Assembly (NCBI GenBank): GCA_963662625.1
Contig: OY759726.1
Span: 1,760,001-1,824,000, forward strand
Direction: 5' to 3'
From: Nitrosopumilus sp.
Lineage (GTDB): Archaea > Thermoproteota > Nitrososphaeria > Nitrososphaerales > Nitrosopumilaceae
DNA length: 64,000 bases
Shown: positions 9,501 to 53,665 of the stretch, piece by piece
Position numbering within the stretch: position 1 is the first letter of the stretch
Layout: every line of letters starts with the position of its first letter
Made by a program: the position numbers and the translations under genes
The notes under the pieces: generated by a model
What the model was told of the DNA's origin: nothing
Seen by the model: the letters and a program-made list of their open reading frames with translations, nothing else
Database searches by the model: none

Positions 9501-9602
9501 CGGATACTAGGCGCGGCGTGGATAAAAATACCTACTGCCGCGCGGGGGCGCCAGCGGGGCGGCCCCGGTATAGATAATAACGTGCTGCGTTTTTTCAGTG
9601 TG

Positions 9603-14209: not shown

Positions 14210-14385
14210 CATGATAACCACCCAGGCGTAGTTGCCCCGATGGACCGGCCCCTGGTAGCGCGTGGGCCTGGCGCCCTTTCTGTTGAATGGGGCAATCCGA
14301 GCTGCCGTGTCACTGGGCTTCGCGCCCTGATAGGTGTGTGCAGCTTCCGATCCGTCAGGCATCCGAAAGGAGGTGATAGGAAAGG
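14210..14385 (+). ncRNA. Candidate IS110 non-coding end / bridge-RNA-like region
   Basis: Two stem-internal loop-stem hairpins directly upstream of an IS110 fragment (see findings). Confidence 0.4.
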
Positions 14386-14562
14386 ATGAGAAAGACAAGC
14401 ATGGGGACAGGCATGGGGAAGAGAAAGCGCGGCGCGTGCGTGGTGGACGGGAACGGGAAGGTTCTCGAGAGGGGGCAGTACCCCAACACCCGGGACGGCG
14501 CGGCGAAGTTCGCAGGGGTGATGGCGCGCAACTGCCAGAAATTGCCGGGCCTAAACAGTTGA
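14386..14562 (+). pseudogene. IS110-family recombinase N-terminal fragment
   Basis: MRKTSMGTGMGKRKRGACVVDGNGKVLERGQYPNTRDGAAKF resembles the start of the DEDD RuvC-like domain; AGGAGGTGA SD upstream; truncated at 58 aa. Confidence 0.7.
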
Positions 14563-14646
14563 GCCCCCAGCCCAACCACGCCAAACCGAAAAGGCCTTGG
14601 ATCACGGCCGCGCACCGTCCCCGTTGGCTGCGACCGACAACGAGAA

Positions 14647-15716
14647 ATGCGCCAGGTGCGGGAGGGGCCTGGCGGTGTCGCATGGCCCCGGCTGGGGGGC
14701 GGCCTGGGGGAGGCCAACGCCGGCAAGGAGGGCGCCCCGTTCAGGTACGCCTGGGCGCTGGTCATGGCCGCCGCCGCGGTGAGGACATCGCCCGGGGCCC
14801 GGTACAGGCAGCTGTCCGGGCTCCTCGCTGGGATGCTGGGGGGCATGGCGCGCCGCACAGCCCGGTGCTGGCCAGGAGGATGGCGCGCCCCGGCGGGGGA
14901 GTCGTCCGCGTCTCCGGCGGCGGCCAGCCCATGACCCTGCTGGCCGACGCCACGGGCCTGAAGCAGTGCAACCGGGGCGAGTGGATACGGAAGAAGTGGA
15001 AGGTGAAGCGCGGGTTCGCCAGGCTGCACCTGCTGGCCGACGCCGACACGAAGAAGATGCCCGCGGCGGTGGTGACCGACGACAGGACGGGCGACTCCCC
15101 CATGCTGAAGGAGCTCCTGGGAACCGTGGTGGAGCCGCGTGGCGGGAAGCGGCAAGAGGGGAAGCCGGCGGGGAAGCAGGACAGGCGCATGGCGCTGATC
15201 CGCGGGAAGGCAGCCGCGGCGGGGGATCCCCTGCCGCGCGCGGGCTCGCCCCCGCCCAACCTCCTCGCGAGCGGCGTGGCGCCGCTCGCGCTGCAGTGCG
15301 GCCAGCCGCCCGGCTCCCGCGGGGCGCGCCTGATCGCGGACGGGGCGTGCGCGTCGCGGGACAACATGCGGAGGTGCCGCGACATGGGCGTGGGGCCTAT
15401 CATCCTGGCCAGGGTAGCGCCCGCCGCCGGGGGCAAGGGCGCCGGCGGCGCGTGGGGCGAGGCGGCTCGGGACCGGCCGGGGGGCGGCCCGGAGGCGCGC
15501 GCCGGCAGGATGGGCACGAGGGAGAGGGAGGAGAACGCCCGGTACCGGGAGGCCAGGAAGGGGTACGGCAGGAGGTGGCTGACCGGGATAACCATGTCGG
15601 CGTTCAAGGGGACGTCCGGGGACCACGCGCGCTCGCGCAGGTGGGAGAACATCGTGCAGGAGGCAAGGCCCATGGCGGCCCAGCACGACCGGTGGGCGGG
15701 GGAGGCGGGGGCGTAG
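14647..15716 (+). pseudogene. IS5-family DDE transposase, frameshifted and decayed
   Basis: NAGKEGAPFRY...YRQLSG in one frame; DATGLKQCNRGEWIRKKWKVKRGFARLHL...ADGA...GYGRRW in another. Confidence 0.85.
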
Positions 15717-15821
15717 GGACTCCAAGCGGCACGGCCTGGCCACGGCCCGGGGATCGTGCCGAGTTGTGCAACAGACTACCACGCAAGAATCCTTTATATC
15801 ACGCCGGCATGAATTCGCGGC

Positions 15822-18937: not shown

Positions 18938-19680
18938 GAGTGTCGAATGACAAGAGTTAGCCATATTATTAAATATTTTGCGAATTCTTAGATGCCGTAG
19001 CGTGCGAAAACCAGGCCGCGTTGGTTTAGGGATTCCTGCAAATGACCGCTTTGCAGATCAAGAAGGCGGGCGAAACCCGGGCCGGTGGAAAAGCAGATCA
19101 CGTGCGCCGCCTGCCGGCGGCATGGGGAACCGCCGGCTGCGGGTACTGCGGCGGGTACCGAGGCGGCCGGGGACGCGTCCGTGGATCGCGCTACGGCTTC
19201 GCCGTGGCTGGCGCGCCGGCGGGCGACGTGGAGGGCCGCTGGGATCCGCCGCGCTGGCCGCTGCCGGGGGTGCCCGGAACGCTGCGGCCCCCCGGCGCGG
19301 GAAGCACTTCCCGCACTCGAATTTCCCGCTGGCCGCCAGATGCCCGCGTCGGGTGGCGGTCCCGGCGCGGGAGAAGGCGGGTCCCCTGCCCACCACGCGG
19401 CCCCACGGAAGACGGCCCGGCATGCGCCGCGGAGCAGCAGGCCATGTCCAGGCGGGGTGACGCGGAGGCGGATACCGCGAAATGCGGCGGTTGGGAGACC
19501 CCGCTAGGATCCGGGACGGCCTCCAGATCAAATGCTTATATAGCCACGGGCTATATGATGGGCGACTCGACACAACATGTATGGATTCAAGAGACCCGAC
19601 CGCAAAGGCATGGAGGGTGACGCCATCCTGGCGTGTGCGGGTTTGGGAGGTTAGCTGTTTTGGCAGATGGTGCGCGCGGC

Positions 19681-23051: not shown

Positions 23052-23101
23052 CGCCGGGCCAGGAGAGATTGTTTTTATAGCGACCCGCCGTTCTGGTATC
23101 C

Positions 23102-24750: not shown

Positions 24751-26673
24751 TCACGCGGGCCCCGCGAACTCGCCCAGGACGCCGGGGTTCTCCAGCGAGG
24801 AGAGGTCGCCCGGGTCCGAGCCGAGCAGCCTGGACCTCAGCAGCCTCCGCATCACCTTGCCCGTCCGGGTCTTCGGCAGGTCGGACAGCCGGATCACGTG
24901 CCGGGGACGGGCGATCTTGCCGACCCTGGCAGAGACGAGGTCGGGTATCTCCGTTTCCAGCCCTGCCGCCGGCCCGTCCGCGACGAAGAACACCGCGATC
25001 GCCTCCCCCGTCAGCGCGTCGGGGACCGGGACGGCGGCGGCGTCGGACACCCTGCCGTGGGACATTACGGCGTGCTCGATCTCGGCCGTGCCGATCCTGT
25101 GGCCCGCGACGTTCATCACGTCGTCGACGCGGCCGCGCATGTACCACAGGCCGTCGTCGTCCACGCGCACGCGGTCGCCGTGGAACCACACCCCCTCAAA
25201 GCGCGACCAGTACGTCTCCACGAACAGCTCCTCGTTGTTCAGCAGCCCCCGGGTCATGGCGGGCCACGGCGACCTGACTACCAGGTAGCCGTCCCCGTTC
25301 CTTACTGGATTCCCGTCGTCGTCAAGGGCGTCAAGGTCCATCCCGGGCACGGGCATGCCCACGGTCGACGGCCTCAGGCTCATCCCGGGAAGGACGGACA
25401 GCATCGCGCCGCCGGCCTCGGTGCCGCCGGCCAGGTTCACCACTGGGATCCTCCGGGAGCCGACCTCCTCAAACAGCCAGCGCCACGAGTCCTCGTCTAG
25501 CGGCTCCCCCGTGCACGGGATGTTCTTCAGCCTCCCCAGGCCGAACGACTCCGCGGGCCTGGCGCCGGCCCTCCTGAACATCCGCACCGCCGTGGGGGAG
25601 GTCCCGAATATGGTCACGCCGTACCCCGAGAGTATCTTCCACGCGGCGTCCGGGTCCGGGGCGTCCAGCGCGCCGTCGTAGATCACCGCGGAGGATCCCG
25701 CAAGCAGCAGCCCGTAGACGTTCCACACGAGCCCGGTTATCCAGCCCGCGTCGGCCGGCCAGAAGACCACGTCGTCCTTGGTGGTGTCCACCAGGTACGC
25801 CGACTGGTGCCCGGCAAACACCGAGAACCCGCCGTGCACGTGGACGGCGCCCTTGGGCATGCCGGTGGTGCCCGACGTGTACAGCACGAACAGCGGGTCC
25901 TCGGAGTCCATGGCCTCGGTCCCGCACGAGGCGCCCTGGGACGCCGCCAGCTCGTCGTAGCGGACCGCGCGGCCGGACCGCGGGTACGAGTCCACGCCCC
26001 CGTACGGCACGACTATGATCCTCTCGACGCGCGTCCCCCGCACCGCGGACTCCACGGCGCCGCGCTGGGAGACTGGCCTCCCCTTGCGGTAGAACCCGTC
26101 GGAGACGAACAGCACCTTTGCCCCGCAGTCCCGCAGCCTGACGTGCAGCGACTCCGAGCCGTACCCCGAGAATATCACGGTCTGGACGGCCCCGATCTTC
26201 GCGGCCGCCAGCATCGCCAGGAACGCCTCCTCGATCATCGGCATGTAGATCGCGACGACGTCCCCCCTGCCGACCCCGAGGGAGAGCAGCGCGTTTGCGC
26301 ACCTGGACGCCCCGCGGTCCAGCCCGGAGTAGGTGACCCTCGAGCGGGCGCCCCCCTCGGAGGCGAAGTGGTACGCGGTCTTCCCGGGATCGCTGCGCGC
26401 GAACCTCTCCACTGACGAGCTGTAGACGTTGGTCTTGCCGCCAGGAAACCACGCGGCGTGCCGCGGGCCGCCGGAGGGGTCGATCACCTCCCGGTACGGG
26501 GCATGCCACACGATGCCGACGTCCCGCTCGACCGAGCCCCAGAACCACCCGGGGTCGGCCGACGCCCGGCTGCGGAGCTCGTCCAGCGAGCCGACGCCGT
26601 GCTTCCGCATGAACCTGTGGATGTTCGAGTCCCTGCGCTGCCGCGCGGTCGGGACGAACTCATAGCCGGCCAA
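24751..26673 (-). CDS. acs: AMP-forming acetyl/acyl-CoA synthetase
   Basis: YTSGTTGMPKG, GRVDDVMNVAGHR, LPKTRTGK. Confidence 0.9.
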   Translation of the reverse strand: MAGYEFVPTARQRRDSNIHRFMRKHGVGSLDELRSRASADPGWFWGSVERDVGIVWHAPYREVIDPSGGPRHAAWFPGGKTNVYSSSVERFARSDPGKTAYHFASEGGARSRVTYSGLDRGASRCANALLSLGVGRGDVVAIYMPMIEEAFLAMLAAAKIGAVQTVIFSGYGSESLHVRLRDCGAKVLFVSDGFYRKGRPVSQRGAVESAVRGTRVERIIVVPYGGVDSYPRSGRAVRYDELAASQGASCGTEAMDSEDPLFVLYTSGTTGMPKGAVHVHGGFSVFAGHQSAYLVDTTKDDVVFWPADAGWITGLVWNVYGLLLAGSSAVIYDGALDAPDPDAAWKILSGYGVTIFGTSPTAVRMFRRAGARPAESFGLGRLKNIPCTGEPLDEDSWRWLFEEVGSRRIPVVNLAGGTEAGGAMLSVLPGMSLRPSTVGMPVPGMDLDALDDDGNPVRNGDGYLVVRSPWPAMTRGLLNNEELFVETYWSRFEGVWFHGDRVRVDDDGLWYMRGRVDDVMNVAGHRIGTAEIEHAVMSHGRVSDAAAVPVPDALTGEAIAVFFVADGPAAGLETEIPDLVSARVGKIARPRHVIRLSDLPKTRTGKVMRRLLRSRLLGSDPGDLSSLENPGVLGEFAGPA

Positions 26674-34527: not shown

Positions 34528-34677
34528 CTCCCAGGGGGGAGATCATTTGTGAGCGTCACCCTAGGCACGGATCGGAAAAGTCACGGGATGCGTTGCGGCA
34601 ACTACGCCCGGGCGGTCATCACACGTTCATGCCACGGGCCCACCATACATTATAAGGGACTCCGGCCATAGCACAGC

Positions 34678-45519: not shown

Positions 45520-45702
45520 GGGTTACCATCAACCCCGCACGTTAAAAATGGTTTCATGCGCCCGGCCTGCCGCATGATCGCCCCCGGGACAGGATGCCCG
45601 GCGGGACTCGCGCGCGGGGCCCGGGCGGGCTGCAGGTTGAGCTGGCGTGAAGGGCCCGCGCGCCCTTAAGCTTAAATGCGAACTTTGCGACGGTACGGTG
45701 AA

Positions 45703-47953: not shown

Positions 47954-47981
47954 TTAGGCCATGCGCGTACCAGAACCCAGT

Positions 47982-48377
47982 ATGCTATTCGGGAAGAAGT
48001 TCGAACGGCAGGTCTCCCTGCAGAGGGACGTCCTAGACAGCATACTGTCATACTGCAAGATGAAGCACCCTAACGAGGGGATCCTGATCCTGAAGGGCAA
48101 GTCCAAGAAGGGCGACATCAGGGTGGACGGCCTGGTGATCCCCCCGTTCAACTACACGGGCCCCACGTTTGCCGGCTTCCCGCACTCGTTCCTGCCGTTT
48201 GACATGAGCTACGTCGGCAGCGTCCACTCCCACCCGAGCGGCTCTGCGGACCCCTCGATCACCGACCTGCACAACTTCTTCGGGCTGGTGTCGGTCATAG
48301 TCAAGGCCCCGTACGAGGATGAGGACGTCTTTGCGTGGGACAGCGGGGGCAAGCCCATCAGGATCGACATAGTCTGA
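47982..48377 (+). CDS. JAMM/MPN+ metalloprotease
   Basis: HPNE...VHSHPSGSADPSITD. Confidence 0.92.
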   Translation: MLFGKKFERQVSLQRDVLDSILSYCKMKHPNEGILILKGKSKKGDIRVDGLVIPPFNYTGPTFAGFPHSFLPFDMSYVGSVHSHPSGSADPSITDLHNFFGLVSVIVKAPYEDEDVFAWDSGGKPIRIDIV

Positions 48378-48617
48378 CGGCCCCGTCGTGCGTCCTTGGG
48401 GCGCCAAAGTGGAACAGCGTGGCCGCGACGCGCTGGCGGACGTGCCCTTGGCTGGGTACTCGCACCCCCCGACGGCCGCTCCTACGAAGCGTTCCTCCGG
48501 GCGCTCGTGCTCCAAACCGTGGGCATCGAGTGCTTCCCGCACGTCGTCCGTGGCCACGTCAGGCCATAGTTTCCCAGCAGCTTCCGGGCCGTCCTGGAAG
48601 CGGTCGTCGTTTGCCAT
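48378..48617 (-). pseudogene. Orphan ORF behind hammerhead A, apparently truncated
   Basis: MANDDRFQDGPEAAGKLWPDVATDDVREALDAHGLE...; frame runs antisense into the JAMM gene until 48048. Confidence 0.4.
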
Positions 48618-48665
48618 GCGACGCCGCTCGCGGCGTTTCGGCCACCGGGGCCTCATCAGGCAGGC
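48613..48665 (-). ncRNA. Type I hammerhead ribozyme A
   Basis: GCCUGC CUGAUGA GGCC ccggu GGCC GAAA CGCCG cgag CGGCG UC^ GCAuGGC. Confidence 0.9.
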
Positions 48666-48685
48666 TGTCTGGGCGTCTTTCAAAA

Positions 48686-48693
48686 ATTAAATA
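48686..48693 (-). promoter_or_regulatory. TATA-like box for ribozyme A
   Basis: TATTTAAT 21-28 nt upstream of the ribozyme 5' strand; identical in both copies. Confidence 0.55.
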
Positions 48694-49341
48694 CTCGGGG
48701 GTCCAACATCAGGTGGTGGGGGCTCAGCTGGACTTTAGTCCACCTACTCTTCATCTCCAGATGAAGGGATTAGCAGTGCCAAGTTTTCATCATCGCCCTC
48801 ACCATCCAAGCCAGTCCCATGGGACGGCCATCCCAAATCGAACACTAAAATAACTCCGGGGCCTCCTGAAGGTGGCGAGGGGTCAGATCTGACAGTCATC
48901 ATCACAATGATGATCAGAAGCCGTTCTCATCATCCCCCTCGCCCGGTTCACCCGGCACTTGCCGGGAAATGCCGCCAACCGGCGTGACTGCCGGACCAAT
49001 TCCGGCGTGAAAACGTGAAAGGAGACGTCTTGCGTGAGACAAGACACATGGAAGAAGGCACGTAGGATGTCTCGTGTGGCATAAGACGCGGCGCCATGGT
49101 GACACTTTGGCATGTTAGATGGGGGTTTACTAGGGTCCGATTTTGTGTTTGGTGTTTTGTTCCTGTTTTGGTTGGAACGCCCACCATAACCGCGAAGGAT
49201 ACTAGGGAGTTCGGGTTTTGTCGGAGCCCGCAGACGTCCTCCCCCGCAGGGTATATGGATCGCGCCGTCCCGGGGTTGCCAACGGGGCCACTGGCTGCCG
49301 GCGCGGCCGCGCCCGCGGCGCTCCTTGAACGACATGGACCG

Positions 49342-49968
49342 TCAGTCGAACAGACTGTAGAGCTGGCTGTCTGTAAGACGTGGGGCTTCGCGGGTCTCGG
49401 AGCACATGTTTGACACGTACCTGCCGTGTTCCGGAAGGTAGATGCCCTTCCCCGGAACGTATCTCCCGATGCCCTGCAGTATGCGGGCGACATCCCCTTG
49501 AGAGTGGCTCTCGGCCACTGAAGTTGCCATGGATCCCCTGCCGGGGGTTTCGCCCATCCAGGGCTCCTCAGCATGGCTTCGTTTGGTAAAAAAGGGGGCG
49601 GCTACCGCCTGCCGCCCATGCCGTCCCTGAGCCTTTGCCAGTGGGCCTTTTAGGTCCCACGACCTTTTTGGCGCAGAACTCGAGCCGCCGGAGGACCCCG
49701 CGGGGGAGGCACTCTTCCAGGTCAGACCTGGACTCCCCCGGAGCAGCTGCTCCAGAACCGCCTTGCACTTGGCCGGCCCCATGGCTTGGAATTGCTCCCT
49801 GTACCAATCGGAACCGTGGAAGTCCGGCGGGTTGCAGAACTGGCACTCCTCCCCGTACTCGTCCCCGCGGGGATTGACGTGGTCGTGCGCGTCCGCTTGA
49901 TCCTTTTCGATCAGTTTGGCGGCCAGCAGGTAGTGCTCGACCACCCGAGCCGATGGGAGTTCCCCCAT
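49342..49968 (-). CDS. Orphan ORF, possibly the frameshifted continuation of 49911-50195
   Basis: HDH...CQFC motif; overlaps the upstream ORF at a G5 run. Confidence 0.45.
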   Translation of the reverse strand: MGELPSARVVEHYLLAAKLIEKDQADAHDHVNPRGDEYGEECQFCNPPDFHGSDWYREQFQAMGPAKCKAVLEQLLRGSPGLTWKSASPAGSSGGSSSAPKRSWDLKGPLAKAQGRHGRQAVAAPFFTKRSHAEEPWMGETPGRGSMATSVAESHSQGDVARILQGIGRYVPGKGIYLPEHGRYVSNMCSETREAPRLTDSQLYSLFD

Positions 49969-50195
49969 CCGGTGCCGATTGGATTCCCGGAGCCTACGTC
50001 CGTCAGTACGTCGCCGTCACTTATGGCGACAACATCGTTCTTGCAATAAAATTTGCGGGTTCGGCCCTCTGGGCCGGCTTGGGCGCGTACGGCGTCGTCG
50101 AGGCCTAGCCTCTCCTGTACGTGCTTGCAGACGCTTTTGGTTAAGAACGTCCTACCTCCTATGGAGATTTGCTTCATGACTGTTTGTTCTGCCAT
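49911..50195 (-). CDS. Orphan ORF behind hammerhead B
   Basis: MAEQTVMKQISIGGRTFLTKSVCKHVQERLGL...; AUG lies inside ribozyme stem I. Confidence 0.5.
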   Translation of the reverse strand: MAEQTVMKQISIGGRTFLTKSVCKHVQERLGLDDAVRAQAGPEGRTRKFYCKNDVVAISDGDVLTDVGSGNPIGTGWGNSHRLGWSSTTCWPPN

Positions 50196-50243
50196 GCGAC
50201 GCCGCTCGCGGCGTTTCGACCATTCAGGTCTCATCAGGCAGGC
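50191..50243 (-). ncRNA. Type I hammerhead ribozyme B
   Basis: GCCUGC CUGAUGA GACC ugaau GGUC GAAA CGCCG cgag CGGCG UC^ GCAuGGC. Confidence 0.9.
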
Positions 50244-50263
50244 TGCCTGGCCGTCGTTCAAAA

Positions 50264-50271
50264 ATTAAATA
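50264..50271 (-). promoter_or_regulatory. TATA-like box for ribozyme B
   Basis: TATTTAAT at the same spacing as in copy A. Confidence 0.55.
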
Positions 50272-50493
50272 CTCGGGGATCCAACATCCGGTGGTGGGGG
50301 CTCAGTTGTCACGGCTTGAAGATGTCTCATCATTTGCGCCATGTCAGACTTTCACTGGAGTACAGCGTCGGCACTGGCATCATCATCATCGCCCTCACTG
50401 GCATCATCATCGCCCTCACCATCCAAGCCGGATCAGATGGGAACGGCGCGGTCGACAAAACTTTATAAGGTTTTTGACGGTAGTTGCAGTGGA

Positions 50494-50823
50494 TTGTTCA
50501 GCTACAAGACTTATTTGATCTTCCTTTTCGTGTCACTGGCGGTCAGCATCGGCCTGCAGATGGTCCTGCCGTTCCCGTACGGCCTCGGGGTCGCGCTGGC
50601 GCTGTTCATCGCGTTCCCGCTGCTGCTCAGGAGAAAGTACATGAACCGCATGAGGGGCGGATACGGAGGCTCCGGCTCCGGCTCGTCCGGGGGCGGCGGG
50701 TTCTTCGGGCTCGGCTCGTCCGGCGGCAGCTCGGTCAGGTACGTGTGCCTCGTGTGCAACAACAAGCACAAGGGGGGCGCCTGCCCTCGCTGCGGTTCCA
50801 AGATGCAAAGGGCGGACTTTTAG
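50494..50823 (+). CDS. 2-TM membrane protein with Gly/Ser linker and C-terminal zinc ribbon
   Basis: TTTATAA box ~26 nt before TTG; CLVC...CPRC. Confidence 0.82.
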   Translation: MFSYKTYLIFLFVSLAVSIGLQMVLPFPYGLGVALALFIAFPLLLRRKYMNRMRGGYGGSGSGSSGGGGFFGLGSSGGSSVRYVCLVCNNKHKGGACPRCGSKMQRADF

Positions 50824-53569: not shown

Positions 53570-53665
53570 CAGGGTTTCTCACGCGCGCCGCGTTATAATA
53601 GGTGCGGCGCGCCCGCGCCAGGCCCGCCGGAAAGTCCTAAATTACGGCTGGCCGCAGGATCCGCG

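What the first reader, a model, noticed from the sequence alone, without database searches (positions are those of the whole stretch)
48620..50197. Retrozyme/LTR-like layout: tandem ribozymes could release a 1578-nt circularisable RNA
Seen: both hammerheads are co-oriented within direct repeats, and their cleavage sites are exactly 1578 nt apart. No reverse transcriptase or integrase gene is in the window, and no plus-strand hammerhead core was found in the island. Established: eukaryotic retrozymes are non-autonomous elements whose repeat-borne hammerheads release unit-length RNAs that circularise, and RtcB joins 5'-OH to cyclic phosphate ends. Inference: read-through from copy B to copy A would excise a monomer carrying the 50195/49968 ORFs plus the next promoter and ribozyme half, which could be an archaeal circRNA or an RNA-mobilised cargo unit. 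About 10% divergence between the repeats implies the arrangement is old or was built by separate insertions.
Basis: inference. Interest (0 to 1): 0.75.

Follow-up and report, generated by a model that had tools for sequence, protein, structure and literature searches.

The report
Three archaeal hammerheads, each abutting AUG
A 1.8-kb block in an archaeal chromosome carries three, not two, self-cleaving hammerhead-type RNA motifs, each set to cut one or two bases before a start codon, so it looks like a device that trims messages for translation rather than a retrozyme.

Summary
The stated observation holds. Two co-oriented minus-strand hammerheads sit in a 119-nt, 90%-identical direct repeat, with predicted cleavage sites 1578 nt apart. 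No reverse transcriptase or integrase was found in 132 ORFs.

The description is incomplete. A third, diverged hammerhead (HHR-C, 49577..49526, minus strand) lies inside the proposed monomer. A covariance model built from the other two finds it at 35.1 bits, E 7e-7. Six of 16 base pairs show compensatory changes. If HHR-C is active, the 1578-nt unit is cut into 666 and 912 nt.

All three ribozymes would cut 1-2 nt before an AUG-GCA that lies in helix I. One following ORF (62 aa) has a 90%-identical relative elsewhere. Here, 13 of 56 genes carry a TATA-like run 22-25 nt before the start codon, against 0.37 expected, so leaderless mRNAs are common.

Best reading: a ribozyme array that cuts a longer transcript into leaderless-type mRNAs and small RNAs. 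Retrozyme hallmarks were absent or untestable. The fragment ends would still suit RtcB, and a 7-bp direct repeat flanks the 1841-bp block, so circles or past mobility are not excluded. There are no expression data and no related loci.

The parts
50191..50243 (-). Hammerhead B, type I topology. C17 = 50198; predicted cut 50198|50197, 2 nt before AUG 50195.
   Evidence: 85.4 bits with its own model. Rfam Hammerhead_1 gives 20.0 bits, below the gathering score of 34.
49526..49577 (-). Core CUGAGGA...GAAA. Helix I has 6 perfect pairs. C17 = 49532; predicted cut 49532|49531, 1 nt before AUG 49530.
   Evidence: pattern; 35.1 bits, E 7e-7, with a model built only from A and B; the next best hit in the window scores 15.0 bits; one non-standard pair, at 15.2/16.2. 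RAGATH-1-hammerhead 18.5 bits.
48613..48665 (-). Hammerhead A, type I. C17 = 48620; predicted cut 48620|48619, 2 nt before AUG 48617.
   Evidence: Rfam Hammerhead_1 gives 13.4 bits.
48612..48730 (.). Direct repeat, copy A: box D and stem of a C/D-like RNA, an AT-rich box, hammerhead A and AUGGCA.
   Evidence: family D1; alignment.
50190..50308 (.). Direct repeat, copy B, 90% identical to copy A.
   Evidence: D1. Read by eye from the alignment, about half of the differences fall in helix II and its loop; the helix II stem change is compensatory (column 15-25).
48720..48798 (-). C/D-box-like RNA A. The terminal stem with box C and box D is conserved with copy B; the interior is unrelated and atypically long.
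   Evidence: D3; terminal stem predicted. Rfam gives only weak C/D matches (sR39 19.6 bits).
50298..50415 (-). C/D-box-like RNA B, with an internal 21-24-nt duplication of the box C region.
   Evidence: (D3, D4).
48880..48937 (-). Canonical-looking C/D box sRNA with boxes C, D', C' and D and a 9-bp terminal stem.
   Evidence: snoPyro_CD 35.1 bits (gathering 45); E 5e-5 in the local search and 1.4e-3 over the whole window. Fold z -4.49, 0 of 200 shuffles as stable.
49588..49617 (-). G+C hairpin followed by T6, ending 10 nt 5' of hammerhead C. It is terminator-like and lies inside the long ORF 49968..49342.
   Evidence: The scan as a whole is not enriched: 2 sites found against 2.7 in shuffles.
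48682..48693 (.). AT-rich box with a T5 run on the minus strand, 16 nt 5' of hammerhead A. The same box is at 50260-50271 before hammerhead B. It could be a promoter or a terminator; its orientation is unresolved.
49911..50195 (-). ORF B1, 94 aa, beginning at the AUG in helix I of hammerhead B. No relatives and no family.
   Evidence: An ORF this long is reached in 270 of 5000 shuffles.
49342..49530 (-). ORF C1, 62 aa, beginning at the AUG in helix I of hammerhead C. It is the C-terminal part of the mechanical ORF 49968..49342.
   Evidence: A 62-aa protein P0003 matches residues 147-208 of the long ORF at E 5.9e-27; 56 of 62 residues are identical.
48378..48617 (-). Open frame after hammerhead A ('A1'). 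Probably not a gene: it has no stop before it runs 330 nt antisense into the JAMM gene 47961-48377.
   Evidence: no relatives.
48600..48606 (.). Left copy of the 7-bp direct repeat that flanks the block. The right copy is 50448-50454. The block between them is 1841 bp.
   Evidence: Among random pairs of 12-nt windows, 887 of 200000 share a word of 7 or more, and 182 of 200000 do so at equal offsets. Four choices of the 5' boundary were tried.
50461..50468 (.). TATA-like box outside the block, readable in both directions. On the minus strand it would start transcription near 50438, just 5' of C/D-like RNA B. A similar box at 48846-48853 precedes C/D-like RNA A.
   Evidence: Read from the sequence against the window's own promoter consensus. 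This is inference.

Best explanation
The 1.84-kb block between the JAMM gene and the gene at 50494 is an RNA-processing array, not a retrozyme.

Proposed mechanism:
1. A minus-strand transcript starts near 50438, upstream of C/D-like RNA B, and possibly again near 48820.
2. It runs through three type I hammerheads.
3. Each ribozyme has the AUG-GCA of the next reading frame inside the 3' strand of its helix I, and would cut 1-2 nt before that AUG.
4. Cleavage detaches the upstream RNA: a C/D-box-like RNA, or the preceding message past its leaky hairpin/T-run.
5. Cleavage also frees a message whose 5' end is virtually at the start codon. This is the form this organism's ribosomes normally receive, since leaderless genes are common and Shine-Dalgarno-like motifs are rare.
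6. The last hammerhead (A) has no credible gene behind it. It would simply end the RNA before it runs antisense into the JAMM gene.

Shown by calls: the three motifs, their covariation, their positions relative to the AUGs, the leaderless promoter geometry, and the one conserved ORF.
Inferred: self-cleavage, co-transcription, and the effect on translation.
For: - Three full hammerhead cores lie on one strand within 1.7 kb.
- A model built from A and B alone finds C at 35.1 bits, E 7e-7; the next best hit in the window is 15.0 bits.
- 47 of 48 pair cells are standard pairs, and 6 of 16 pairs changed on both sides. Only 1 of 500 shuffles reaches this. With partners slid by 1-3 columns, pairing is 29.5-42.6% and there are 0-1 double changes.
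- The three share dimensions: helix II of 4 bp with a 5-nt loop, and helix III of 6 bp with a 4-nt loop.
- The cut sites lie 2, 1 and 2 nt before an AUG-GCA.
- The frames behind the AUGs are open for 94, 62 and at least 80 codons. Shuffles reach these lengths in 270, 736 and 500 of 5000.
- C1 has a 62-aa relative that starts at the same Met-Ala; 56 of 62 residues are identical.
- 13 of 56 genes have an A/T run ending 22-25 nt before the start codon, against 0.37 expected.
- Shine-Dalgarno-like words precede 5 of 53 starts.
- Hammerhead C has no TATA-like box that could start a transcript containing its whole helix I. The only A/T run nearby ends 10 nt before it. It must therefore be reached from upstream.

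Precedents read in passages:
- PMC3088659: tandem hammerheads flank genes in prophages and cut about 2-kb transcripts in vitro. A haloarchaeal virus hammerhead lies 13 nt before a start codon, and the mapped mRNA 5' end is within 3 nt of the cut.
- Preprint 10.1101/2024.05.16.594327 (abstract and Discussion): cleavage by a 5'-UTR hammerhead is needed for translation initiation in a chrysovirus.
Against: - There are no RNA data of any kind and only this one locus. No related locus could be fetched.
- All three motifs score below Rfam gathering thresholds.
- The hammerhead fold is 2.5-4 kcal/mol above the predicted minimum in each case: -22.4 against -26.5, -21.6 against -24.7, and -19.5 against -22.0.
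- Helix I is only 6 bp. No loop-loop tertiary contact could be assessed, so cleavage may be slow in vivo.
- Hammerhead C has a C.A mismatch at 15.2/16.2.
- A and B share their AUG by descent, so the AUG association rests on two independent cases, not three.
- B1 and the frame after A have no relatives.
- In Saccharolobus solfataricus a 5'-OH leaderless mRNA forms weaker initiation complexes than a 5'-triphosphate one (PMC11698992, passages).
- The AT-rich box before A and B fits the window's promoter consensus better on the plus strand.
Confidence: 0.45

Rival explanations
1. Retrozyme-like or circular-replicon reading. The block is a greater-than-unit-length chromosomal copy of a ribozyme-bearing circle. 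Read-through RNA is cut by the repeat-borne hammerheads, joined by RtcB into a circle, and possibly mobilised through RNA.
For: - The terminal direct repeats each hold a hammerhead.
- The block of 1841 bp equals one 1578-nt unit plus 263 nt, and is flanked by a 7-bp direct repeat at equal offsets. Random window pairs match this in 182 of 200000 trials at equal offsets, or 887 of 200000 without the offset condition.
- The frame behind the terminal hammerhead A is not a credible gene. That fits terminal redundancy better than a second expression cassette.
- The 1578-nt RNA folds more stably than shuffles (z -3.35, 23 shuffles). Two coding controls give z 0.04 and 0.28.
- Hammerhead ends suit RtcB (established knowledge).
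Against: - The third hammerhead would cut the unit in two.
- No RT or integrase appears in 132 ORFs.
- There is no match of 8 nt or more to the complement of the window's tRNA 3' end, and no purine run over 6 nt in the 81 nt before repeat A.
- The repeats differ by 10% and their C/D-like middles are unrelated. LTRs of one insertion should start identical.
- The interior holds a conserved ORF.
- A hairpin+T6 and a T5 run lie in the read-through path.
- No LTR or Penelope-type retroelement is known in archaea (recalled, not tested).
- Four boundary choices were tried for the 7-mer, so its chance probability is nearer 0.004-0.02.
- The excess structure sits where the C/D RNAs lie and just upstream of them, around 48700-49140.
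Confidence: 0.07
2. The hammerheads only make 3' ends or insulate units. Each sits just after a stable stem plus T-run and trims read-through RNA. This gives the upstream C/D-like RNA or message a defined 2',3'-cyclic-phosphate end. The AUG in helix I is incidental.
For: - The order stem, then T5-6, then 10-16 nt, then hammerhead recurs three times.
- Hammerhead A has no gene behind it.
- Two of the three follow C/D-like RNAs.
Against: - It does not explain why the cut falls 1-2 nt before an AUG-GCA in both independent lineages of the ribozyme.
- It does not explain why a conserved 62-aa ORF starts exactly there.
Confidence: 0.2
3. The motifs are inactive relics or look-alikes. The repeat is an ordinary duplication of a C/D sRNA gene with its flank, as described for Pyrobaculum sRNA families.
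For: - Rfam scores are sub-threshold.
- The hammerhead fold is not the minimum-energy fold.
- C/D sRNA genes are known to duplicate with their flanks and to swap guides (PMC6009581, passages).
Against: - All invariant core positions are kept in 3 of 3 copies.
- Six pairs carry compensatory changes.
- The changes between A and B in helix II keep the stem.
- The core pattern is about 30-fold above chance.
Confidence: 0.1
4. The conserved repeat serves the plus strand. The AT-rich box is a plus-strand promoter for a leaderless small ORF starting at GTG 48716 / 50294. The minus-strand motifs are bystanders.
For: In plus orientation the box has the A-rich stretch at -34/-33 and its last A at -23 from a GTG in both copies. 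This matches the consensus of 13 leaderless promoters.
Against: - The two plus-strand ORFs (45 and 74 aa) share only their first 5 residues and one 8-residue stretch.
- They have G+C at third positions of 0.41 and 0.39, against about 0.9 in the window's genes.
- They are the antisense of box C repeats.
Confidence: 0.04

Closest known systems
Clustered hammerheads flanking genes in bacterial prophages (Perreault et al. 2011, PMC3088659; passages read)
   Same: Several co-oriented hammerheads bracket single genes or short gene blocks of varying identity. The proposed role is cutting long transcripts into gene-length mRNAs. Circular products were considered there too, and were looked for without success.
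   Different: - This one is in an archaeal, Thaumarchaeota-like chromosome.
- No integrase or phage gene is nearby.
- The cut falls 1-2 nt before an AUG that is part of helix I.
- Two of the ribozymes follow C/D-box-like RNAs.
Hammerhead of haloarchaeal viruses HF1/HF2 upstream of the helicase gene (PMC3088659, Discussion passage)
   Same: An archaeal-host hammerhead sits just before a start codon, and the mRNA 5' end was mapped within 3 nt of the cut.
   Different: It lies 13 nt before the start rather than 1-2. It is a single copy in a virus genome and a core-variant ribozyme.
Plant LTR retrozymes (Cervera et al. 2016, PMC4918200; passages read)
   Same: Hammerheads sit inside terminal direct repeats. 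The RNA between the cuts has ligatable ends. A short flanking direct repeat is present.
   Different: - Those have type III ribozymes, 300-400-bp LTRs and a 300-600-bp non-coding interior.
- They carry 4-bp TSDs, tRNA-Met PBS and PPT boxes, many copies and Ty3-gypsy helpers.
- Here the ribozymes are type I, the repeats are 119 nt plus 26 nt with unrelated middles, and the interior holds ORFs and a third ribozyme.
- Here no PBS or PPT was found and no RT is in view.
Metazoan non-LTR retrozymes (Cervera and de la Pena 2020, PMC7229834; abstract read)
   Same: Type I hammerheads, with circularisation attributed to tRNA ligase.
   Different: Those are short tandem repeats giving 170-400-nt non-coding circles in very high copy number. 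Here the intervals are unequal (666 and 912 nt) and non-repetitive, and the locus is single as far as can be seen.
Ribozyme-dependent translation initiation in RNA viruses (preprint 10.1101/2024.05.16.594327; abstract and Discussion read)
   Same: A type I hammerhead in the 5' region of a message, whose cleavage activity is required for translation of the downstream ORF.
   Different: Those are eukaryotic RNA viruses with cap-independent initiation and the ribozyme 100-300 nt into a UTR. Here the element is DNA-encoded and archaeal, with the cut at the start codon.
Duplicated and mobilised C/D box sRNA genes in Pyrobaculum (Lui et al. 2018, PMC6009581; passages read)
   Same: C/D sRNA gene copies keep their boxes and flanking similarity while their guides diverge. 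Some overlap or abut protein genes.
   Different: No ribozyme is reported with them in the passages read.

Membership tests
Hammerhead ribozyme (type I) | Invariant core: C3 U4 G5 A6 N7 G8 A9, G12 A13 A14, the A15.1-U16.1 pair, and H17 that is not G | tested here: met
   All positions are present in 3 of 3 motifs. N7 is U in A and B and G in C; H17 is C in all three.
Hammerhead ribozyme (type I) | Three helices around the core with standard pairs next to it; helix I open, helices II and III closed by loops | tested here: met
   47 of 48 pair cells are standard. The pairs 1.1-2.1, 10.1-11.1 and 15.1-16.1 are standard in all three. One C.A occurs at 15.2/16.2 of C.
Hammerhead ribozyme (type I) | Covariation supporting the helices | tested here: met
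   6 of 16 pairs changed on both sides; 1 of 500 shuffles reaches this; slid controls give 0-1. Caveat: only three sequences, and the alignment was fitted to the model.
Hammerhead ribozyme (type I) | Score at or above the Rfam gathering threshold | tested here: not met
   Hammerhead_1 gives 13.4 bits (A) and 20.0 bits (B) against 34. RAGATH-1-hammerhead gives 18.5 bits (C) against 56.3.
Hammerhead ribozyme (type I) | Site-specific self-cleavage | not testable with these tools
   Needs in vitro transcription.
LTR retrozyme | Hammerheads embedded in 300-400-bp terminal direct repeats that are near-identical | tested here: inconclusive
   The repeats exist but are 119 nt at 90% identity plus 26 nt, separated by unrelated 56-95-nt middles.
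LTR retrozyme | Non-coding interior of a few hundred bases between the cuts | tested here: not met
   The interior is 1578 nt. It holds ORF C1, which has a conserved relative, a third hammerhead and a C/D sRNA.
LTR retrozyme | 4-bp target-site duplication directly at the LTR ends | tested here: not met
   The adjacent 4-mers are unequal for 4 of 4 boundary choices. A 7-bp repeat lies 5 nt outside each end instead.
LTR retrozyme | Primer binding site complementary to a tRNA 3' end, and a polypurine tract next to the LTRs | tested here: not met
   There is no match of 8 nt or more to the complement of the 3' end of the only tRNA in the window. The longest purine run in the 81 nt before repeat A is 6. 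The other tRNAs of the genome were not available.
LTR retrozyme | Autonomous RT-encoding partner and many dispersed copies or solo LTRs | not testable with these tools
   None in this window. The rest of the genome and its relatives could not be searched.
LTR retrozyme | Unit-length linear and circular RNA in vivo | not testable with these tools
   No transcript data are at hand.
Prophage-type hammerhead gene arrays | Two or more co-oriented hammerheads flanking single genes or short gene blocks | tested here: met
   Three sit on the minus strand, bracketing B1/B2N and then C1 plus small RNAs.
Prophage-type hammerhead gene arrays | Prophage or integrase neighbourhood | tested here: not met
   No integrase or phage family was found. 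PHROGs gave nothing below E 0.1 for 5 ORFs, and no blastn or tblastn match appeared in the phage records.
Archaeal C/D box sRNA (48880-48937) | Boxes C, D', C' and D with a terminal stem and guide spacers of about 12 nt | tested here: inconclusive
   The boxes and a 9-bp stem are present and the D guide is 12 nt, but the D' guide is 9 nt. The score is 35.1 bits against a gathering score of 45. No rRNA was available to test targets.

The most novel reading that the evidence does not exclude
The 1841-bp block is the chromosomal footprint of a ribozyme-bearing circular element of archaea. It would be a 1.17-unit copy, flanked by a 7-bp duplication. Its transcripts are cut by three hammerheads and closed by RtcB into protein-coding RNA circles (666, 912 or 1578 nt), which persist, are translated, or serve as a mobile intermediate. 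That would make it an archaeal counterpart of retrozymes or viroid-like elements that carries genes.
Probability: 0.07. Interest if true: 0.9.

Novelty: new variant of a known kind. Interest (0 to 1): 0.55.

Why it matters
What genome-encoded hammerheads do in prokaryotes is still largely open, and few had been reported from archaea: "at least three" in 2011 (PMC3088659).

Here the geometry points to a concrete job that can be tested. Ribosomes in this organism mostly receive leaderless messages. A ribozyme that cuts right at an internal AUG would let a downstream cistron be translated from a longer transcript.

Three sites, two independent, at one locus give exact coordinates for cleavage assays, 5'-OH and cyclic-phosphate end mapping, and reporter tests.

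The same sites define the junctions to look for if RtcB turns the fragments into circles.

Tried and rejected
Searches for related sequence:
- One scan of genome contigs with a hammerhead-plus-ATG pattern returned a single locus, L001. Its match has no helix II or III and lies in unrelated sequence. I treat it as a chance hit. The window's own genome was not found there.
The 'empty site' comparison (JAMM gene next to the 50494 gene) and a search for related modules therefore stayed undone.
- blastn of the 2.1-kb island against phage and plasmid records found nothing. tblastn of C1 against phages found nothing.

The island's ORFs:
- Word-based protein searches for B1, B2 and the frame after A returned only self-hits or nothing.
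- Pfam, PHROGs, NCBIfam and PADLOC gave no credible family. PDB sequence searches gave none either.
- The AlphaFold model of B1 without an alignment is too poor to use, at pLDDT 46.2. An AbrB-like impression from its N-terminus rests on recall only and is dropped.
The copy number and sources of P0003 are therefore unknown.
- Two further hits of the long ORF (P0004 at E 7e-5, P0005 at E 7.8e-4) are short stretches in proteins of 948-1947 aa. I did not follow them.

Other checks:
- The sigma-70 promoter scan does not apply to archaea and was ignored.
- The terminator scan was not enriched over shuffles.
- MFE folding alone does not recover the hammerhead fold.
- The MAFFT alignment of the three ribozymes was structurally inconsistent. 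It was replaced by the model-based alignment.

Literature:
- Searches for natural hammerheads linked to leaderless mRNAs, or for self-cleaving ribozymes in ammonia-oxidising archaea, gave one unrelated review.
- In one search, none of the 10 papers listed (of 849 holding at least two of the terms) contained the word hammerhead.
Full report
**Observation**

The direct repeat is real: 48612-48730 and 50190-50308, 119 nt, 90% identical, 1578 nt apart. On the minus strand each copy holds a complete hammerhead core. The pattern CTGATGA-N8-30-GAAAC occurs twice in the 64-kb window, both times here, against 0.07 expected; 0 of 100 shuffles reach two matches.

Read from the sequence, helix I is open, helix II is 4 bp with a 5-nt loop, and helix III is 6 bp with a 4-nt loop. 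That is a type I topology. All 16 hand-placed pairs are standard pairs in both copies.

The two copies differ mostly in helix II and its loop, and the stem change is compensatory. Neither copy reaches Rfam's gathering score: Hammerhead_1 gives 13.4 and 20.0 bits against 34. The hammerhead fold lies 3-4 kcal/mol above the predicted minimum.

**A third hammerhead**

A looser core pattern, CTGANGA-N6-30-GAAA, gave four matches in the window. One is an unrelated plus-strand site at 26412. The other three are on the minus strand of the island. The new one, hammerhead C (49577..49526), has these features:
- core CUGAGGA...GAAA
- a perfect 6-bp helix I
- the same helix II and III dimensions as A and B
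- A15.1-U16.1 and C17 = 49532

I built a covariance model from A and B only and ran it over the whole window without filters. It finds C full-length at 35.1 bits, E 7e-7. The next best of 51 listed matches scores 15.0 bits, E 0.16.

On the model-based alignment of the three, 47 of 48 pair cells are standard pairs and 6 of 16 pairs changed on both sides. Only 1 of 500 shuffles reaches this. With partners slid by 1-3 columns, pairing falls to 29.5-42.6% with 0-1 double changes. There are caveats: only three sequences, an alignment fitted to the model, one C.A at 15.2/16.2 of C, and an Rfam score for C of only 18.5 bits for RAGATH-1-hammerhead.

**Position relative to start codons**

In all three, the 3' strand of helix I contains AUG-GCA, and the cut falls 2 nt (A, B) or 1 nt (C) before the AUG. 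The frames behind them are as follows.

| Frame | Coordinates | Length | Shuffles reaching this length | Relatives |
|---|---|---|---|---|
| B1 | 50195..49911 | 94 codons | 270 of 5000 | none |
| C1 | 49530..49342 | 62 codons | 736 of 5000 | P0003, 56 of 62 identical |
| after A | 48617.. | at least 80 codons | 500 of 5000 | none |

- **C1.** It is the C-terminal part of the mechanical ORF 49968..49342. A full HMMER search of that ORF against 1.84 billion representatives found a 62-aa protein, P0003. It matches residues 147-208 at E 5.9e-27 and starts at the same Met-Ala. C1 is therefore the only reading frame in the island with outside support, and it starts exactly at a hammerhead cut.
- **Frame after A.** It has no stop before it runs 330 nt antisense into the JAMM gene. 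I do not regard it as a gene.

No family was found for any island ORF in Pfam, PHROGs, NCBIfam, PADLOC or the PDB.

**Host context**

The window is 65.8% G+C, with third-position G+C near 0.9 in its genes. Its gene content is archaeal and Thaumarchaeota-like: a DnaJ-ferredoxin fusion, PurP-type DUF1246/DUF1297, GatCAB and a JAMM protein. The DnaJ-Fer link to Thaumarchaeota comes from the listing of PMC3564930.

Thirteen of 56 predicted genes have an A/T run of six or more ending 22-25 nt before the start codon, against 0.37 expected from the density of such runs. Their alignment gives a BRE/TATA consensus with the start codon at +1. Shine-Dalgarno-like words precede only 5 of 53 starts. Leaderless messages are therefore common here. 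The island has 55-63% G+C and weaker codon-position bias.

**Other parts of the block (minus strand, 5' to 3')**

1. A TATA-like box at 50468-50461, shared back-to-back with the promoter of the plus-strand gene at 50494. By the window's spacing rule it would start minus-strand transcription near 50438 (inference).
2. A C/D-box-like RNA B (50415..50298).
3. An AT-rich box with a T5 run.
4. Hammerhead B, then B1 and an overlapping open frame.
5. A G+C hairpin with T6 (49617..49588), ending 10 nt before hammerhead C.
6. Hammerhead C, then C1.
7. About 400 nt without a credible ORF but with hairpins.
8. A canonical-looking C/D box sRNA (48937..48880). It scores snoPyro_CD 35.1 bits, E 5e-5 in the local search, with fold z -4.49.
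9. A second TATA-like box (48853-48846).
10. C/D-like RNA A (48798..48720), the AT-rich box with T5, and hammerhead A.

The two C/D-like RNAs share their 5' stem with box C (26 of 26 nt) and their box D with 3' stem. Their interiors are unrelated.

The AT-rich box before A and B is ambiguous. On the minus strand the window's spacing rule would put a start inside helix I or the core. On the plus strand it fits the consensus, with a GTG at +1 in both copies. However, the plus-strand ORFs that would follow have third-position G+C of only 0.39-0.41 and share almost nothing.

Hammerhead C has no box that could start a transcript containing all of it. It must be reached by transcription from upstream, through the hairpin and T6.

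**Test of the retrozyme reading**

I took the defining features from passages of PMC4918200. They are hammerheads in 300-400-bp LTRs, a 300-600-bp non-coding interior, 4-bp TSDs, PBS and PPT boxes, many copies and Ty3-gypsy helpers.

Here:
- The repeats are short, 10% diverged and interrupted by unrelated middles.
- The interior holds a conserved ORF, a third ribozyme and an sRNA.
- The adjacent 4-mers are unequal for 4 of 4 boundary choices.
- Nothing of 8 nt or more matches the complement of the 3' end of the only tRNA in the window.
- The longest purine run in the 81 nt before repeat A is 6 nt.
- No RT or integrase family was found in 61 + 71 ORFs. One DDE transposase ORF lies at 14334-15716.
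- Two T-runs of five or more lie in the path from B to A.

Membership is therefore not supported.

- **Flanking repeat.** A 7-bp direct repeat (50454-50448 and 48606-48600 on the minus strand) lies 5 nt outside each end of the repeat. Those 5 nt are themselves similar between the copies. Among random pairs of 12-nt windows, 887 of 200000 share a word of 7 or more, and 182 of 200000 do so at equal offsets. Four 5' boundaries were tried.
- **Block length.** The delimited block is 1841 bp, one 1578-nt unit plus 263 nt. The terminal hammerhead A has no gene behind it, as expected for terminal redundancy.
- **RNA stability.** The 1578-nt RNA is more stable than its shuffles (z -3.35, 23 shuffles). 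Two coding controls give z 0.04 and 0.28. The excess sits around 48700-49140, where the C/D RNAs lie and just upstream of them.

**Most likely mechanism**

I read the block as a ribozyme array that processes a longer transcript. Each cut separates the upstream RNA from the next message and leaves that message with a 1-2-nt leader. This is effectively the leaderless form this organism uses.

Precedents:
- Tandem hammerheads flank genes in prophages and cut about 2-kb transcripts in vitro (PMC3088659, passages).
- In haloviruses HF1/HF2 a hammerhead lies 13 nt before a start codon, and the mRNA 5' end maps within 3 nt of the cut (PMC3088659, passages).
- Hammerhead cleavage is needed for translation from a chrysovirus 5' UTR (preprint 10.1101/2024.05.16.594327, abstract and Discussion).

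Against it:
- In Saccharolobus solfataricus a 5'-OH leaderless mRNA binds the small subunit less well than a triphosphate one. The authors also say the triphosphate mimics a -1 base, which the 1-2-nt leader here would supply; that last step is my inference (PMC11698992, passages).
- A and B share their AUG by descent, so there are only two independent cases.
- Nothing here shows cleavage, co-transcription or translation.

I put this reading at 0.45. The rivals are:

| Rival | Confidence |
|---|---|
| Pure 3'-end or insulator role | 0.2 |
| Inactive relics within a duplicated C/D sRNA flank (such duplications are described in PMC6009581, passages) | 0.1 |
| Retrozyme-like or circular-element reading | 0.07 |
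| Plus-strand promoter reading | 0.04 |

Circular by-products made by RtcB are compatible with the best reading, and they remain untested. For C/D sRNAs themselves, circularisation in Thermococcus depends on the ATP-dependent ligase Rnl rather than RtcB (PMC9014305, abstract start seen in the listing).

**What stayed unchecked**

- No related locus could be examined.
- The cluster look-up and the Atlas were unavailable.
- The context of P0003, the copy number of the module in this genome and the empty site in relatives are therefore unknown.
- Supplementary files of the papers were not consulted. The hammerhead alignments in the supplements of PMC3088659 might hold related archaeal examples.

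Noticed in passing
48880-48937 (minus): A canonical-looking C/D box sRNA with a 9-bp terminal stem. It scores snoPyro_CD 35.1 bits, below the gathering score of 45, with fold z -4.49. It is the only C/D match in the window at E below 0.01.
   Followed up: partly
48720-48798 and 50298-50415 (minus): Two atypically long C/D-box-like RNAs share identical box C/stem and box D/stem ends but have unrelated interiors. Copy B has an internal duplication of the box C region. Each lies just 5' of a hammerhead.
   Followed up: partly
48600-48606 and 50448-50454: A 7-bp direct repeat flanks the 1841-bp block, 5 nt outside each end of the long repeat. It could be a target-site duplication or an att core. 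The chance estimate is 0.0009-0.0044 before allowing for the four boundaries tried.
   Followed up: partly
whole window, e.g. 2643-2650, 9522-9530, 15793-15799, 23072-23079, 34649-34655, 45542-45549, 53593-53600: 13 of 56 predicted genes have a TATA-like A/T run ending 22-25 nt before the start codon (0.37 expected), with an A-rich stretch at -34/-33. Leaderless mRNAs therefore appear to be the rule in this organism. Shine-Dalgarno-like words are rare, preceding 5 of 53 starts.
   Followed up: yes
48940-49140 (both strands): About 200 nt upstream of the C/D sRNA holds several G+C hairpins, with local fold z down to -2.85 (minus strand) and -3.67 (plus strand). There is no Rfam match and no credible ORF.
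   Followed up: no
14334-15716 (+): An ORF with a DDE_Tnp_1 transposase domain (E 1e-7) lies in a stretch (about 13.5-16 kb) of atypical codon-position composition. It is the only mobile-element gene seen in the window.
   Followed up: no
49911-49968 (minus): ORF B1 and the long ORF 49968..49342 overlap by 58 nt in different frames, around a run of five G. This could be a frameshifted single gene or a homopolymer sequencing error.
   Followed up: no
50455-50480: A back-to-back BRE/TATA arrangement could serve both the plus-strand gene at 50494 and the minus-strand block.
   Followed up: no
16.9-19.6 kb, 33.4-34.7 kb, 62.4-64.0 kb: Further stretches lack the window's usual third-position G+C bias and have no Pfam matches. 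An A/T-rich 17-mer lies at 18963-18979.
   Followed up: no
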